Positions 8,887 through 22,164 of a stretch of 64,000 nucleotides of DNA are shown here, one piece after another (the first letter of the stretch is position 1; each line of letters opens with the position of its first letter). Location: the IMG/VR virus record IMGVR_UViG_3300005662_000021, positions 32,001 through 96,000 of that record, one strand, 5' to 3'. This stretch comes from a virus. Its lineage: Duplodnaviria > Caudoviricetes. The position numbers and the translations under genes were made by a program. The notes beneath the pieces are model-generated. The model worked only from the letters and a program-made list of their open reading frames with translations. It ran no database searches and had not been told where the DNA came from.

Positions 8887-9034
8887 AGTCCTGTGGCGGA
8901 ATTGGTAGACGCTATTAAGATAACTAAGGCAGTATATTTTCTCGGAGTAAATATGCAAAGTCATAGTGTTGTACAGATTATCCGAGTGACGAGTACATGC
9001 TTAATTTTTACAGGTTCGAATCCTGTCAGGACTA
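8887..9034 (+). ncRNA. tRNA-Leu-scaffold RNA with replaced anticodon arm (copy 2)
   Basis: AGTCCTG/CAGGACT, Leu-type D-arm, ACAGG-TTCGAAT-CCTGT; attaag/cttaat stem closes about 80-nt insert. Confidence 0.7.
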
Positions 9035-9956: not shown

Positions 9957-10031
9957 AGAGTAGTAGCGCAATTGGTAGCGCACTCGGTTTGGGACCGAGA
10001 GATTTTGCAGGTTCGAGTCCTGTCTACTCTA
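9957..10031 (+). tRNA. tRNA-Pro(TGG)
   Basis: AGAGTAG/CTACTCT; ctcgg-TT TGG GA-ccgag. Confidence 0.9.
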
Positions 10032-10039
10032 CAAGATTT

Positions 10040-10116
10040 AGGAAAGTATCCCCTCAGCCTTATACGCCGTAGAAAGGGTAACTGGTAACATATGGGTTCG
10101 AACCCCATCTTTCCTA
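10040..10116 (+). ncRNA. non-cloverleaf tRNA-like RNA with Ile(TAT)-type loop
   Basis: AGGAAAG/CTTTCCT acceptor, A73, CT TAT AC loop at nt 20-26, TGG D-loop-like motif 3' of it, ATGGG-TTCGAAC-CCCAT T-arm. Confidence 0.7.
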
Positions 10117-10129
10117 CAAAATTATAATA

Positions 10130-10206
10130 CGGCAAGTATACCCTCCGTCTGATACACGGTAGAAAGGTTAATTGGTTACATATAGGTTCGATTCCTATCT
10201 TGCCGA
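10130..10206 (+). ncRNA. non-cloverleaf tRNA-like RNA with Ile(GAT)-type loop
   Basis: CGGCAAG/CTTGCCG acceptor, A73, ccgt-CT GAT AC-acgg, ATAGG-TTCGATT-CCTAT T-arm; same 77-nt layout as 10040..10116. Confidence 0.75.
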
Positions 10207-10215
10207 CAACAATAA

Positions 10216-10289
10216 GTCTCAGTAACTCAGTGGTTTAGAGTTCTCGACTGTTAATCGAGTGGTCGTAGGTTCGAATCCTACCTGGGACG
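10216..10289 (+). tRNA. tRNA-Asn(GTT)
   Basis: GTCTCAG/CTGGGAC; ctcga-CT GTT AA-tcgag. Confidence 0.92.
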
Positions 10290-10305
10290 CAAATTTTAAT
10301 AAATT

Positions 10306-11275: not shown

Positions 11276-11360
11276 GTCCTTATGGTGTAATGGTTAAACA
11301 TCCCACTCTTACAAAGTGGAGACGAGAAGTATAATCCTAGTTCGAATCTAGGTAAGGACA
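11276..11360 (+). tRNA. tRNA-Val(TAC) with enlarged variable region
   Basis: GTCCTTA/TAAGGAC; ccact-CT TAC AA-agtgg; 16-nt variable region. Confidence 0.8.
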
Positions 11361-11388
11361 CATTAAATGATTTTTAAAATATAAAAAA

Positions 11389-11868: not shown

Positions 11869-11954
11869 GGTCGGGTGGCCGAGTTGGTTAAGGCACTAGT
11901 CTGCAAAACTATCGAATGAAAAATTCATCGTGGGTTCAAATCCCTCCCCGACCT
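11869..11954 (+). tRNA. tRNA-Cys(GCA) with long variable arm
   Basis: GGTCGGG/CCCGACC, U73, CT GCA AA loop, gaat/attc variable hairpin. Confidence 0.85.
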
Positions 11955-12015
11955 CAAAAAAAAAGTTCAGTTAGTTATTTTTACTCATTTTGTTGATATT
12001 TATATATATATATAT

Positions 12016-13222: not shown

Positions 13223-14560
13223 ATGAAAATTTTCTATTCAATTTTACTAATCTTTTTACCTTTTTTAATTTATTCCCAAGGTCTTATAATAAATGAAATA
13301 TCAAATGGTGATTCTGGAAACAGAGAATATTTTGAGTTAGTTGTTATTGGCTCGACTTCAAACCCTACAATAAGTGTAGACTTGGGTGGATGGATAATAG
13401 ATGATAATAATGGAGATTTTGAAGGTGTTTTAAGTGGGGTTGGTACAGCTCAAGGTCATATAAGAATTAAACCAGGATGTTTATCTAATGTAAAACCTGG
13501 GTCAATTATTTTAATTTATAATAGTGCTGATGTTAATCCCACTTTTGGGATAACTCCAGACCCATTAGATTTTGATGGTGATTGTGTTTATATTTTACCA
13601 ATAAGTGATTTGTGTTTGGATAATACATCAAATTTACCAACAACAACAAATCCATTGTATACTCCAGTTAGTTATACCGCAACAAGAATTTGGGATAGGA
13701 TTGGATTTAGAAATGATGGTGATGCCGCACAAGTTAGAAGTCCAAATGGTTTATTTTTTCACGGATTTTCATACGGGGATGTGTCAACCCCATTTCCCAC
13801 TTTTCCATTTGGTGGTTCATCTTTTAATATTATAACAGGGAGTGGATTACAAAGAAATTATTTTTTCAATAGTGGTAGTTTTGGAGCAAAAGTCAATTTC
13901 AGTAGAGGTGTTGCCCCAACAAATGAAACTCCAGGTCAACCAAATAATGATGCCAATAGATATTTTATAAATTCATTAAGAATTGGGACTTATAATTATT
14001 CAAACTTATTAGACCCAATTAATATTGGTTCATCAACAACATTGGTTGATTGTGGGACAATATTACCAATTGGTATAATTGAATTTAAGGGAACAAAAAT
14101 TAACGATAATGTCAATCTTCAATGGACGCTTGATAATGTCACAGAAGTCAATTATATTGAGTTGGAGAAGAGTTCAAATGGTTATGATTTCTATCCCATT
14201 TCTGAGATTTATCCTTATGATTTAACAATGAATTATATTGATGATTTGACTTACTCAGAAAATTATTATAGACTTAAAATTGTTGAATATAGTGGTGATA
14301 TAACTTATAGTAATATTATTAATATCTCAAATAAAATTAACGATGATGTATTAATATATCCCAATCCAACAAAAGATATATTGAATATAAAAACAATCAA
14401 AAATATTAATAGAATTTCACTATTTAATGAACTTGGGGTTGAATTTGTTATTGAGAATCCGACATCTCAAATTGATTTATCCTCATTGTCAAAAGGAATT
14501 TATATAGTTAAGATTAATATTGATGAGAATACAATTATTAAAAAAATAATATTAATTTAA
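13223..14560 (+). CDS. T9SS (Por) C-terminal sorting domain protein
   Basis: Signal peptide; LIINEI lamin-tail-like start; LPIGIIEF..W..ELEKSSNG; IYPNP..LNI..IDLSSLSKGIYIVKI..KKIILI. Confidence 0.85.
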   Translation: MKIFYSILLIFLPFLIYSQGLIINEISNGDSGNREYFELVVIGSTSNPTISVDLGGWIIDDNNGDFEGVLSGVGTAQGHIRIKPGCLSNVKPGSIILIYNSADVNPTFGITPDPLDFDGDCVYILPISDLCLDNTSNLPTTTNPLYTPVSYTATRIWDRIGFRNDGDAAQVRSPNGLFFHGFSYGDVSTPFPTFPFGGSSFNIITGSGLQRNYFFNSGSFGAKVNFSRGVAPTNETPGQPNNDANRYFINSLRIGTYNYSNLLDPINIGSSTTLVDCGTILPIGIIEFKGTKINDNVNLQWTLDNVTEVNYIELEKSSNGYDFYPISEIYPYDLTMNYIDDLTYSENYYRLKIVEYSGDITYSNIINISNKINDDVLIYPNPTKDILNIKTIKNINRISLFNELGVEFVIENPTSQIDLSSLSKGIYIVKINIDENTIIKKIILI

Positions 14561-16811: not shown

Positions 16812-16824
16812 CAATACTTTAATT

Positions 16825-16914
16825 AATCGGTTGGTGTAAGTGGAAATGAATACCACCTTGGGTAGCAACCTATTTTTAGAATGGGGGATGTAGGTTCGAA
16901 TCCTACACTGGTTA
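16825..16914 (+). ncRNA. tRNA-like RNA without recognisable anticodon arm
   Basis: AATCGGT/ACTGGTT acceptor-like stem, GTAGG-TTCGAAT-CCTAC T-arm. Confidence 0.5.
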
Positions 16915-16932
16915 AAAAAAGTTTTAAAAGTT

Positions 16933-17687: not shown

Positions 17688-17780
17688 AGTCTTGTGGCGG
17701 AATGGAAGACGCTCGCTTCAAGGTGCGGTTAGTCAACGAAATGTAAAGCTAACGTACAGGTTCGAATCCTGTCAGGACTA
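17688..17780 (+). ncRNA. tRNA-Leu-scaffold RNA, degenerate CAA anticodon arm (copy 4)
   Basis: AGTCTTG/CAGGACT, Leu D-arm, cgc-TTCAAGGT-gcg short arm, gttag/ctaac variable arm, T-arm. Confidence 0.65.
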
Positions 17781-17902
17781 CAAATGTGTTGTTCCTTTGA
17801 GAAAGGAAATATAAAGATGAGTGACATTACTTGAATTATGGAATAGTAACATAATCGTACACTACAACACAGAGGATTTCTCATCCTCAAATTTTTAAAA
17901 AC

Positions 17903-18786: not shown

Positions 18787-18872
18787 CGCAAGGTGGACGA
18801 GTGGTCAATGTCAGGGGTCTCATAAGCCTCTTCTGCGAAAGTGGAACTTCGGTTCGAATCCGAACTTTGCGT
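18787..18872 (+). tRNA. tRNA-CAT (Met or Ile2) with long variable arm
   Basis: CGCAAGG/CTTTGCG; CT CAT AA loop; ttctgc-GAAA-gtggaa variable arm; U at position 73. Confidence 0.8.
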
Positions 18873-18885
18873 CAAATTATTAAAA

Positions 18886-18976: not shown

Positions 18977-19178
18977 GAAATGAAACCTTACATAGGATGG
19001 ATTAGCACCATTGAAAGGGAACTTGGCTCTCATAGGGTCGCAACCTAAATCGAGAGTAATAATGACCCAAGTTGCTATGTAGGAGACCCTGCTCTACCGT
19101 GCACGGTATCAGGTGATGGGGAACAAACCATCATTAAACGTCTTGCCCATATAATGCTTATGGAAGGACTTTCATTTC
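18977..19178 (+). ncRNA. unassigned multi-stem structured RNA
   Basis: gaaatgaaa/tttcatttc closing stem; cttacatag/ctatgtagg, ctctc/gagag, taccg/cggta, tgatgg/ccatca internal stems; no ORF. Confidence 0.5.
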
Positions 19179-20527: not shown

Positions 20528-20613
20528 GCCGTTTTCGCATAGTGGTTGATTGCACTGGATTTGTAACCCAGTTCCGTTAGGACACGTCAGTTCGAATCTG
20601 ACAAACGGCTCCA
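20528..20613 (+). tRNA. tRNA-Thr(TGT) with extra variable hairpin, CCA encoded
   Basis: GCCGTTT/AAACGGC; TT TGT AA loop; tcc-GTTA-gga variable hairpin. Confidence 0.88.
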
Positions 20614-21436: not shown

Positions 21437-21582
21437 AGTCCTGTGGCGGAATGGAAGACGTTTGGGTGCAAATCCCATTAGCCCAAAGGGGGTTACAATA
21501 TATTGAGGTTCGATTCCTCTACTGGTACGGATGTGTCAGATTGGCGTTGTTGTAAATACAGGTTCGATTCCTGTCAGGACTA
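21437..21582 (+). ncRNA. tRNA-Leu-scaffold RNA with replaced anticodon arm (copy 5), containing a second T-arm
   Basis: AGTCCTG/CAGGACT, Leu D-arm, tttgggt/gcccaaa stem, internal GAGG-TTCGATT-CCTC, terminal ACAGG-TTCGATT-CCTGT. Confidence 0.65.
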
Positions 21583-21683: not shown

Positions 21684-21797
21684 GGTCAAGTGGCGGAATG
21701 GAAGACGCTAAGTAAGATGGTGTACGTTTGTCCCATAAGAAAGACCGATGCAACAGAAATGTGAAGGGTCGTATAGGTTCAAATCCTATCTTGACTA
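21684..21797 (+). ncRNA. tRNA-Leu-scaffold RNA with replaced anticodon arm (copy 6)
   Basis: GGTCAAG/CTTGACT, TGGCGGAATGGAAGACGC, ATAGG-TTCAAAT-CCTAT. Confidence 0.7.
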
Positions 21798-22010: not shown

Positions 22011-22098
22011 GCACCCATAGCTCAACTGGACAGAGCAACCGCCTTCTAAGCGGAAGGGTACCGAAAGGTCATTGTAGGTTCGAGTCCTACTGGGTGTA
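22011..22098 (+). tRNA. tRNA-Arg(TCT) with long variable arm
   Basis: GCACCCA/TGGGTGT; CT TCT AA loop; acc-GAAA-ggt variable hairpin. Confidence 0.88.
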
Positions 22099-22164
22099 CT
22101 AAATTTTAATAGTAGCTATTGGTTTGAATTATTGATTTGTTTATATTTATAGTAAAATACTATT

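What the first reader, a model, noticed from the sequence alone, without database searches (positions are those of the whole stretch)
10040..10206. Two tandem 77-nt tRNA-Ile-like RNAs with a rearranged, non-cloverleaf fold fill the one gap in the tRNA set
Seen: both share the exact layout acceptor(7 bp)-TA-T(C/A)CCCT-4 bp stem-7 nt loop (CT TAT AC / CT GAT AC)-stem-TAGAA-AGG(G/T)TA-A(C/T)TGGT(A/T)AC-AT-T arm-acceptor-A73. The anticodon-like triplet sits at nt 22-24 instead of 34-36, and the D-loop-like TGG lies 3' of it. Acceptor, anticodon and T stems differ between copies yet stay paired (one mismatch in copy 1). The 22 cloverleaf tRNAs cover 19 amino acids and lack Ile (unless the CAT tRNA is Ile2), and both loops carry Ile triplets. 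Known: IleRS reads A73, the GAU anticodon and C4:G69 (present in copy 2); UAU-anticodon tRNAs are rare in bacteria. Inference: an alternative tRNA architecture for Ile, or an IleRS/anticodon-nuclease decoy, that cloverleaf scanners would miss.
Basis: partly seen in the sequence, partly recalled or inferred. Interest (0 to 1): 0.9.

Follow-up and report, generated by a model that had tools for sequence, protein, structure and literature searches.

The report
Phage isoleucine tRNAs with rearranged core
Two overlooked genes in a freshwater phage's tRNA cluster encode isoleucine tRNAs that keep every standard tRNA part but join the parts in a different order. This layout is shared by well over a hundred phages and, as far as I could find, is undescribed in the literature.

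Summary
Window 10040-10116 and 10130-10206 (+) are two 77-nt genes packed between tRNA-Pro and tRNA-Asn. Each has a 7-bp acceptor stem, A73, a canonical T arm and a canonical 7-nt anticodon loop (UAU, GAU).

ARAGORN finds 24 tRNAs for 19 amino acids here and none for Ile.

The fold needs one correction. It is the ordinary D-stem, whose two strands lie on either side of the anticodon arm. The D-loop (A14, R15, G18, G19, A21) follows it, and a 3-nt linker supplies base 48.

The gene order is 1-9 | 22-48 | 10-21 | linker | 49-76, a non-circular permutation.

Moving one segment back in silico makes ARAGORN of 100 family members as cloverleaf tRNAs, against 0 of 100 as encoded.

Covariation supports the D-stem register and the 15:48 Levitt pair.

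The family is widespread in phage contigs and occurs in 77 cultured Streptomyces phages. Its anticodons are Ile (UAU, GAU; CAU once) or, less often, Arg. The Arg members carry A20, the ArgRS determinant.

Most likely these are working tRNAs. Expression and charging are untested.

Earlier agents of this scan reported the same architecture for tRNA-Arg in other phages. I found no paper describing it.

The parts
10040..10116 (+). Rearranged tRNA-Ile(UAU), 77 nt, no encoded CCA
   Evidence: 89.4 bits with family model R1. ARAGORN calls it tRNA-Ile(tat) after in-silico un-permutation.
10040..10048 (+). Copy 1: acceptor 5' strand (10040-10046) and the invariant U8 A9 (10047-10048)
   Evidence: Acceptor pairs are 99% paired, with compensatory changes at all 7 positions. 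UA is invariant in 100 of 100 members.
10049..10052 (+). Copy 1: equivalent of canonical nt 22-25 (D-stem 3' strand). It pairs with 10076-10079.
   Evidence: Covariation at 11:39 (CG 66, AU 27, UA 5) and at 12:38 (CG 95, UA 2, UG 2, GC 1).
10053..10075 (+). Copy 1: nt 26 equivalent; anticodon arm (U.U plus 4 positions, one of them an A.C mismatch; loop CUUAUAC; anticodon UAU at 10061-10063); 5-nt variable-loop equivalent AGAAA (10071-10075)
   Evidence: The loop has U33 and A37. AGAAA is present in 94 of 100 members.
10076..10091 (+). Copy 1: equivalent of nt 10-13 (GGGU; G10), then D-loop AACUGGUAA (A14, A15, G18, G19, U20, A21), then linker CAU whose U is the base-48 Levitt partner of A15
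   Evidence: 15:48 covariation of AU 69 and GC 22, 94% paired. A14 and G18 are invariant.
10092..10116 (+). Copy 1: T arm (stem 5 bp, loop UUCGAAC), acceptor 3' strand, discriminator A73
   Evidence: G53, T54, U55, C56, A58 and C61 are invariant in the family.
10130..10206 (+). Rearranged tRNA-Ile(GAU), 77 nt, same layout; anticodon at 10151-10153. It carries A73, C4-G69, U12-A23, C29-G41, U20, G34A35U36 and A37.
   Evidence: 31.1 bits on RF00005; 94.1 bits on R1. The bacterial Ile determinant list is from PMC9976931.
9957..10032 (+). Flanking canonical tRNA-Pro(UGG), 7 nt upstream of copy 1
10216..10290 (+). Flanking canonical tRNA-Asn(GUU), 9 nt downstream of copy 2

Best explanation
Both elements are genes for isoleucine tRNAs whose backbone is non-circularly permuted.

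In standard tRNA numbering the gene reads: 1-9, then 22-48 (D-stem 3' strand, nt 26, the whole anticodon arm, variable loop), then 10-21 (D-stem 5' strand and D-loop), then a 3-nt linker ending in the base-48 equivalent, then 49-76.

The transcript forms the usual acceptor, T and anticodon helices. The D-stem forms by long-range pairing around the anticodon arm. U8, A14, R15:Y48, G18, G19, A21 and the T-loop invariants are all in place to build the normal L-shaped core.

The steps that follow are inference. The precursor is probably cut out of the Pro/Ile/Ile/Asn cluster by RNase P and 3' processing. CCA is then added and IleRS charges it, using the anticodon, A73, A37 and U20, plus C4-G69, U12-A23 and C29-G41 in copy 2. 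Copy 1 (UAU) would read AUA. Copy 2 (GAU) would read AUU and AUC.

The layout, its conservation, the covariation and the genomic context are shown. Folding into an L-shape, processing, charging and decoding are inferred. Why phages keep the rearranged form is unknown. Escape from a host or phage factor that recognises the contiguous D-arm is a guess.
For: 1. Un-permutation test. Moving the 13-15 nt after the variable-loop equivalent back to after nt 9, and dropping the 3-nt linker, makes ARAGORN of 51 and then 100 of 100 family members as cloverleaf tRNAs (Ile-UAU 66, Ile-GAU 25, Arg 8, CAU 1). It as encoded. Other rearrangements gave 0 to 20 of 51.

2. Covariation on 100 distinct sequences:
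- acceptor 99% paired;
- T stem 97% paired;
- D-stem 11:39 is CG 66, AU 27, UA 5, and 12:38 includes UA and GC;
- tertiary Levitt pair 15:48 is AU 69, GC 22.

3. The invariant positions are the universal tRNA ones: U8, A14, G18, U33, A37, G53, T54, U55, C56, A58, C61.

4. Searches that did not fix the anticodon found only Ile anticodons (UAU, GAU; CAU once) or Arg anticodons (ACG, UCU, UCG). Base 20 follows identity: A in 7 of 7 correctly aligned Arg members (the eighth, L041 UCG, is misaligned but reads GGA by eye), and U in 90 of 91 Ile members. One search lists A20 as the main bacterial ArgRS determinant and U20 among the Ile determinants.

5. Copy 2 carries A73, C4-G69, U12-A23, C29-G41, U20, GAU and A37.

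6. Context:
- The window's array has 19 amino acids and no Ile, although Ile codons make up 72 per 1000 (ATT 40.8, ATA 22.9, ATC 8.3) in a 30% GC genome.
- In phages with few tRNAs, the UAU form travels with tRNA-Arg(UCU) and tRNA-Leu(UAA), the usual A-ending codon helpers.
- In large arrays, the UAU form often sits beside a canonical Ile(GAU).

7. The spacing to neighbouring tRNAs is 7, 13 and 9 nt, as in the tightly packed parts of this tRNA cluster.
Against: - There is no direct evidence of a mature RNA, CCA addition, charging or decoding.
- The only RNA data are metatranscriptome contigs. One 204-nt contig covers 10006-10162. Such libraries can hold DNA, so this is a weak hint at most.
- Single-sequence folding is not better than shuffles (z -0.39 and -1.04). 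The MFE of copy 1 is a different fold.
- Copy 1 has an A.C mismatch in an anticodon stem that is already only 4 bp plus U.U.
- In Jay2Jay the rearranged Ile(GAU) is redundant with canonical Ile(GAU) and Ile(UAU), so it is not always needed to fill a gap.
- The window's genome is incomplete. The matching 128.5-kb contig is rated 43% complete, so a canonical tRNA-Ile elsewhere cannot be excluded.
- No 3D model could be computed here.
Confidence: 0.78

Rival explanations
1. A tRNA look-alike that is not used in translation. It could be a decoy that soaks up a host anticodon nuclease, another tRNA-targeting defence or IleRS. It could also be a partner RNA for a phage protein.
For: Jay2Jay has canonical Ile(GAU) and Ile(UAU) as well as the rearranged Ile(GAU). 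The same phage encodes Ro-like, RNA ligase and polynucleotide kinase genes, which are typical of tRNA damage and repair conflicts. No charging data exist.
Against: A decoy would not need the full set of aminoacylation determinants to track the anticodon (A20 with Arg, U20 and A73 with Ile). It would not be the only Ile-type molecule in otherwise complete arrays. It would not be expected to travel with tRNA-Arg(UCU) and tRNA-Leu(UAA) in minimal sets. Jay2Jay duplicates many of its tRNAs anyway.
Confidence: 0.13
2. A D-arm-less tRNA of the mitochondrial kind, as the first reader drew it and as the Rfam model aligns it. It would have one long, extended anticodon hairpin (6 bp + bulge + 4 bp), a long unstructured connector and no D-stem equivalent.
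For: The Rfam tRNA model aligns both copies with the D arm deleted and an 18-nt insertion. The nearest-neighbour energy of the 6-bp register equals that of the shifted register: -16.1 against -16.2 kcal/mol for copy 2, and -12.1 against -12.0 for copy 1.
Against: Two pairs of the 6-bp register are unpaired in 38 of 51 and 15 of 51 sequences, while the shifted register is 100% paired with compensatory changes. The 'connector' holds A14, R15, G18, G19 and A21 in canonical spacing. Its base 15 covaries with the base before the T stem, as the Levitt pair does. Un-permuted sequences are perfect cloverleaves.
Confidence: 0.05
3. A decaying or scrambled tRNA pseudogene, a recombination scar or an assembly artefact, with no function.
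For: Standard tRNA finders reject it. Folding z-scores are unremarkable.
Against: There are about 100 distinct sequences from unrelated phage contigs and 77 cultured phage genomes. Stems stay paired through compensatory changes and core bases are invariant.
Confidence: 0.02

Closest known systems
Canonical bacterial and phage tRNA-Ile (Rfam RF00005), e.g. E. coli tRNA-Ile(GAU)
   Same: It has a 7-bp acceptor stem, A73, a T arm with GTTCRA, a 7-nt anticodon loop with U33 and A37, a 4-position D-stem, a D-loop with A14, R15, G18, G19 and A21, and the R15:Y48 pair. Copy 2 also has C4-G69, U12-A23, C29-G41 and U20.
   Different: The D-stem strands are not contiguous. Segment 22-48 comes before segment 10-21, and a 3-nt linker joins A21 to the T stem. 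Three backbone junctions are new: 9 to 22, 48-equivalent to 10, and 21 to linker to 49. Pair 27:43 is U.U, so the anticodon stem is effectively 4 bp. ARAGORN does not detect it, and RF00005 scores lie at the threshold.
Circularly permuted tRNA genes of Cyanidioschyzon merolae and other algae (Soma; cited in PMC10085705)
   Same: The tRNA parts are encoded in a non-standard order.
   Different: In those genes the 3' half precedes the 5' half, and a circular intermediate restores a normal tRNA. Here the 5' and 3' ends of the acceptor stem are the gene's ends and two internal segments are swapped. Circularisation cannot restore the standard order, so the mature RNA must keep the rearrangement.
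Non-circularly permuted hammerhead ribozymes (Eckert et al. 2023, PMC10085705)
   Same: This is a natural RNA in which internal segments are reordered while the pairing and tertiary partners are kept.
   Different: The RNA class is different. That paper states that no non-circular permutation of a natural RNA was known before it, and it does not report tRNAs.
D-arm-less mitochondrial tRNAs (tRNA-Ser(AGY), nematode tRNAs; PMC7609411, PMC4013460)
   Same: There is no D hairpin between the acceptor and anticodon arms, so the anticodon lies unusually close to the 5' end.
   Different: The mitochondrial molecules have lost the D-stem and the G18 G19 elbow contact, are shorter, and need adapted partner proteins. 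Here every D-arm nucleotide is kept, the length is 77 nt, and the setting is bacterial translation.
tRNA-like modules of bacterial and phage Y RNAs (YrlA) and the TYMV tRNA-like structure (PMC11472068)
   Same: These are tRNA-shaped folds reached with a permuted backbone (circular in Y RNA, non-circular in TYMV).
   Different: Those are mimics: Y RNA has no anticodon arm, and TYMV has a pseudoknotted acceptor stem. The elements here have free acceptor ends, a discriminator base and a genuine anticodon loop.

Membership tests
tRNA (Rfam RF00005) | Score at or above the curated gathering score (29 bits) | tested here: inconclusive
   Copy 2 scores 31.1 bits (above). Copy 1 scores 28.6 bits (just below). 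Both are aligned only with the D arm deleted.
tRNA (Rfam RF00005) | 7-bp acceptor stem with discriminator; T arm with the T54, U55, C56, A58 loop; 7-nt anticodon loop with U33 and a purine at 37 | tested here: met
tRNA (Rfam RF00005) | Contiguous D hairpin (nt 10-25) between nt 9 and nt 26 | tested here: not met
   The D-stem strands are separated by the anticodon arm and variable loop. ARAGORN makes no call.
tRNA (functional definition) | Processed, given CCA, aminoacylated and used on the ribosome | not testable with these tools
   The only data are metatranscriptome contigs covering the locus, which do not show a mature RNA.
Phage tRNAs with a permuted D-arm (family model R1 built here; the same class noted earlier in this scan for Arg) | Order 1-9 | 22-48 | 10-21 | linker | 49-76, with a long-range D-stem and the 15:48 pair | tested here: met
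   R1 scores are 94.1 and 89.4 bits, against 32 bits or less for canonical tRNAs. Un-permutation gives cloverleaf calls for both copies.
Bacterial tRNA-Ile identity (determinants listed in PMC9976931) | A73, A35, U36, A37, G34 (or modified C34), U20; minor determinants C4-G69, U12-A23, C29-G41 | tested here: met
   Copy 2 has all of these. Copy 1 has A73, A35, U36, A37 and U20 but lacks the three minor stem pairs, and it has U34. Whether the host IleRS uses the E. coli minor set is unknown.
D-arm-less mitochondrial-type tRNA | Loss of the D-stem and of the G18 G19 loop | tested here: not met
   The D-stem equivalent covaries. A14, G18 and G19 are present and conserved.
Circularly permuted tRNA gene | The 3' half lies upstream of the 5' half, and the acceptor ends are internal to the gene | tested here: not met
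   The acceptor 5' and 3' strands are at the ends of the 77-nt gene.
Y RNA (YrlA) tRNA-like module | No anticodon loop; closed by a long Ro-binding stem | tested here: not met
   A canonical anticodon loop is present and there is no closing stem. No Y RNA family match appears in Rfam.

The most novel reading that the evidence does not exclude
These are the isoleucine branch of a natural class of tRNAs with a non-circularly permuted backbone. They fold into the normal L-shape, are charged by ordinary bacterial IleRS or ArgRS, and are read by ordinary bacterial ribosomes. If so, the linear order of tRNA domains, treated as near-universal outside organelles, is not required for function. Phages may keep the rearranged form because it escapes something that recognises the contiguous D-arm of normal tRNAs or of their genes.
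Probability: 0.6. Interest if true: 0.92.

Novelty: new variant of a known kind. Interest (0 to 1): 0.86.

Why it matters
tRNA architecture is among the most conserved features of life. [quoted passage not shown] A 2020 review of non-canonical tRNAs has no occurrence of 'phage' or 'permut' in its text.

A working tRNA with a reordered backbone would matter in several ways:
- It would be a natural experiment on which features of tRNA are read by RNase P, the CCA-adding enzyme, synthetases, EF-Tu and the ribosome as 3D shape rather than as chain connectivity.
- It would be a new scaffold for orthogonal translation.
- It would be a systematic blind spot in phage annotation. It is unannotated under the match in all but one of the listed Streptomyces phage records and labelled tRNA-Leu in EGole (listed under two accessions).

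The question is directly testable, because cultured phages with laboratory hosts (Jay2Jay and relatives, on Streptomyces griseus and S. lividans) carry the gene.

Tried and rejected
Rejected on covariation. Energy does not distinguish the two registers.
- **Ile-only family.** My first pattern gave only NAU anticodons. A second pattern and a descriptor search found Arg members, so this was rejected.
- **Cellular genomes, pattern scan.** All 120 rows returned from genome contigs were chance matches with no full element.
- **Cellular genomes, model search.** R1 run on 151 Bacteroidota and 151 Actinomycetota genomes found nothing at E <= 1e-10. Phage records ring as a positive control. Only a subset of candidates per genome was scored, so the result is 'not found in those searched'.
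- **Homing-endonuclease link hinted by earlier scan notes.** Of 10 ORFs directly upstream of family members, 1 has an HNH domain. The others are dNMP kinase (2), ThyX (1), a papain-like protease (1) and 5 with no Pfam match above its curated cutoff. There is no general association.
- **Descent from canonical tRNA-Ile.** With the anticodon masked, the best canonical match of both window copies is a phage tRNA-Ile(GAU). Scores are low, and other members match Lys or Arg best. This is inconclusive.
- **RNA evidence.** Metatranscriptome contigs overlap the locus (X15) or relatives of copy 2 (X18, X17). They cannot show transcription, ends or level.
- **Literature.** Eight full-text searches and five papers opened gave no description of a permuted, D-segment-transposed tRNA in phages or bacteria. 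Subscription journals are not covered.

Full report
**What is there.** They sit between tRNA-Pro (9957-10032) and tRNA-Asn (10216-10290), with spacers of 7, 13 and 9 nt. They lie inside an array in which ARAGORN tRNAs: 19 amino acids, one of unknown identity, and no Ile.

ARAGORN does not call the two elements. The Rfam tRNA model reaches them only by deleting the D arm and opening an 18-nt insertion before the T arm. It scores 28.6 and 31.1 bits against a gathering score of 29. Single-sequence folding is unremarkable, with z-scores of -0.39 and -1.04.

**A large family.** Of these matches, 84 copies (51 distinct sequences) have the complete 77-nt layout with a 7-bp acceptor stem, a 4-bp anticodon stem and a T arm.

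A second pattern left the 3' half free. An anticodon-agnostic structural descriptor was then run over all phage loci held. Together they raised this to 99 distinct sequences in 1.8 Mb, against 1 hit in the reversed-sequence control.

Members also occur in GenBank phages:
- 77 Streptomyces phages of the Jay2Jay group;
- bajarodcaudo virus 1;
- the macaque crAss-like phage cr130_1;
- a 462-kb uncultured phage;
- one Kehishuvirus record, which I did not inspect.

No feature is annotated under the match in any listed record but one. The exception is phage EGole (listed under two accessions), where exactly these 77 nt are labelled tRNA-Leu reading UUA.

**The fold.** Shifting the register by one base gives three pairs that are 100% paired. 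Element nt 11 covaries with nt 39: C-G 36, A-U 13, U-A 2.

Read in standard tRNA numbering, the element is then:

| Element nt | Sequence or role | Canonical equivalent |
|---|---|---|
| 1-7 | acceptor 5' strand | 1-7 |
| 8-9 | U8 A9 | 8-9 |
| 10-13 | D-stem 3' strand | 22-25 |
| 14 | single base | 26 |
| 15-31 | anticodon arm (15:31 is U.U) | 27-43 |
| 32-36 | AGAAA | 44-48 |
| 37-40 | GGNU (G10) | 10-13 |
| 41-49 | AAYUGGUNA | A14, R15, Y16, U17, G18, G19, Y20, N, A21 |
| 50-52 | linker CAY | last base plays the role of 48 |
| 53-77 | T arm, acceptor 3' strand, A73 | 49-73 |

The gene is therefore a tRNA in which segments 10-21 and 22-48 have changed places.

**Test of the permutation.** I moved the transposed segment back in silico and dropped the linker. 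ARAGORN then of 51 sequences, and on the larger set 100 of 100, as cloverleaf tRNAs: Ile-UAU 66, Ile-GAU 25, Arg 8, CAU 1. It calls none of them as encoded. Control rearrangements gave 0, 0 and 20 of 51.

On the 100-sequence alignment:
- the acceptor is 99% paired and the T stem 97%;
- D-stem pair 11:39 is CG 66, AU 27, UA 5;
- D-stem pair 12:38 is CG 95, UA 2, UG 2, GC 1;
- the base equivalent to 15 covaries with the base before the T stem: A-U 69, G-C 22, 94% paired.

That last pattern is the signature of the tertiary Levitt pair 15:48.

The invariant columns are U8, A9, the 26 equivalent, C32, U33, A37, G10, A14, G18, the middle linker A, G53, T54, U55, C56, A58 and C61. This includes the full set of universal tRNA core nucleotides.

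From what is known of tRNA 3D structure (my knowledge, not computed here), each new junction joins residues that are neighbours in the folded molecule. U8 and A9 lie next to the 13:22 end of the D-stem. Base 44 stacks directly under base 10. A21 lies one layer from base 48. An L-shape with the normal elbow is therefore plausible, but it is inferred.

**Identity.** Among the 100 aligned sequences the anticodons are UAU 66, GAU 25, CAU 1, ACG 6, UCU 1 and UCG 1. The architecture therefore serves Ile and, less often, Arg.

Base 20 of the transposed D-loop is A in all seven correctly aligned Arg members. It is also A, by eye, in the misaligned eighth. It is U in 90 of 91 Ile members. A recent review lists A20 as the main bacterial ArgRS determinant and U20 among the bacterial Ile determinants (PMC9976931). 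All 91 Ile members have A73. The ACG Arg members have G73 or A73, three each.

Window copy 2 has A73, C4-G69, U12-A23 (in the long-range D-stem), C29-G41, U20, GAU and A37. Copy 1 has A73, U20, UAU and A37 but not the minor stem determinants. It also has an A.C mismatch at 29:41, and the same mismatch recurs in two unrelated members.

**Context.** The window is 30.4% G+C. Ile is 72 codons per 1000: ATT 40.8, ATA 22.9, ATC 8.3. The DNA is found in freshwater metagenomes. A protein inside the array carries a type IX secretion sorting domain, which points to a Bacteroidota host.

A 128.5-kb IMG/VR contig with identical copies has all its tRNA hits in one cluster and is rated 43% complete. A canonical tRNA-Ile elsewhere in the genome is therefore not excluded.

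Across the family:
- phages with only one to three tRNAs pair the UAU form with tRNA-Arg(UCU), and often also with tRNA-Leu(UAA);
- large arrays often place the UAU form next to a canonical Ile(GAU);
- other arrays, like this window, carry both rearranged forms and no canonical Ile.

Jay2Jay carries a rearranged Ile(GAU) plus canonical Ile(GAU) and Ile(UAU). Jay2Jay duplicates many tRNAs.

**Specificity and distribution.** Family model R1 scores the two window copies 94.1 and 89.4 bits, and nothing else in the window scores above 32. It found no member in 302 sampled Bacteroidota and Actinomycetota genomes, while phage records ring as controls. This is a sample searched with strict filters, not proof of absence.

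**Expression.** One 204-nt contig from a freshwater metatranscriptome covers 10006-10162 with three differences. Contigs from wastewater and compost RNA libraries cover relatives of copy 2. Such libraries can contain DNA, so this is only a weak hint.

**Verdict.** The fold is better described as a non-circularly permuted cloverleaf than as a non-cloverleaf.

The most likely function is ordinary decoding of AUA (copy 1) and AUU/AUC (copy 2). A decoy role is the main rival.

I found no description in the searchable literature. A 2023 paper reports the first non-circular permutation of any natural RNA, in hammerhead ribozymes, and does not mention permuted mature tRNAs.

Earlier agents of this scan independently reported the same architecture for tRNA-Arg in other phages. 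I reached my reading before seeing those notes, and I confirmed Arg members in my own loci. This window adds the Ile branch and the case where both Ile decoders of a near-complete array are of the rearranged type.

Noticed in passing
window 8446-8568, 8894-9034, 17688-17781, 21437-21582, 21684-21797: These are long (94-146 nt) tRNA-like RNAs with a near-identical acceptor stem, a Leu-type D arm and a T arm, but a large, different insert where the anticodon arm should be. The Rfam tRNA model hits several at 32-41 bits. ARAGORN calls two of them (17688-17781 as unknown identity, 21438-21528 as Leu-CAA) and misses the others.
   Followed up: partly
window 11276-11361 (Val-UAC), 18787-18873 (Met-CAU), 22011-22099 (Arg-UCU); also 11869-11955 (Cys), 20528-20613 (Thr), 16824-16915 (Gln): These are 86-92-nt tRNAs for amino acids that normally have short variable loops. 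For Val, Met and Arg, ARAGORN draws a paired long variable arm, as in Leu, Ser and Tyr tRNAs; Cys, Thr and Gln are judged from length alone. The single CAU tRNA also has a 6-bp anticodon stem.
   Followed up: partly
window 19078-19139: A full-length match to the Rfam freshwater-1 RNA motif scores 68.7 bits, just under its gathering score of 72. It lies inside the tRNA array.
   Followed up: no
L134:1815-1890, L135:4756-4832 and 4918-4994, L149:1301-1377, L150:2892-2968, L158:5900-5976, L162:5250-5325, L166:553-630, L041:5066-5139: These are rearranged tRNAs of the same architecture with Arg anticodons (ACG, UCU, UCG). They have A at the base-20 position, and G73 or A73.
   Followed up: partly
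L148:65-142, L041:2956-3032: These are rearranged Ile(GAU) genes that lack the conserved AGAAAGG core and have a fully paired 5-bp anticodon stem. The class is therefore broader than the sequence patterns used here can capture.
   Followed up: no
L121 295-371 (Streptomyces phage EGole, MK494112.1 75265-75341): The rearranged Ile(GAU) gene is annotated as tRNA-Leu reading UUA, which is a misannotation. In Jay2Jay and the other listed relatives no feature is annotated under the match.
   Followed up: yes
L016, L024, L033, L036, L037, L039, L042, L048, L052, L067, L077, L088, L101, L106 (upstream of the rearranged Ile-UAU gene): In one widespread group (acceptor CCGCGAG and close variants), the stop codon of an upstream same-strand ORF of about 115-185 aa abuts the first base of the tRNA. 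All four of these ORFs that I tested had no Pfam match above its curated cutoff.
   Followed up: partly
window 5027-6487 and 13223-14560: The first is a DUF2828/DUF7788 protein just upstream of the tRNA array. The second, inside the array, is a protein with a type IX secretion C-terminal sorting domain, which suggests a Bacteroidota host.
   Followed up: no
L122 (Jay2Jay, KM652554.1 60000-109000): The Streptomyces phage that carries the rearranged Ile(GAU) also encodes a Ro-like protein, a T4-like RNA ligase, a polynucleotide kinase, a tmRNA and a nucleotidyltransferase gene directly upstream of the rearranged tRNA.
   Followed up: no
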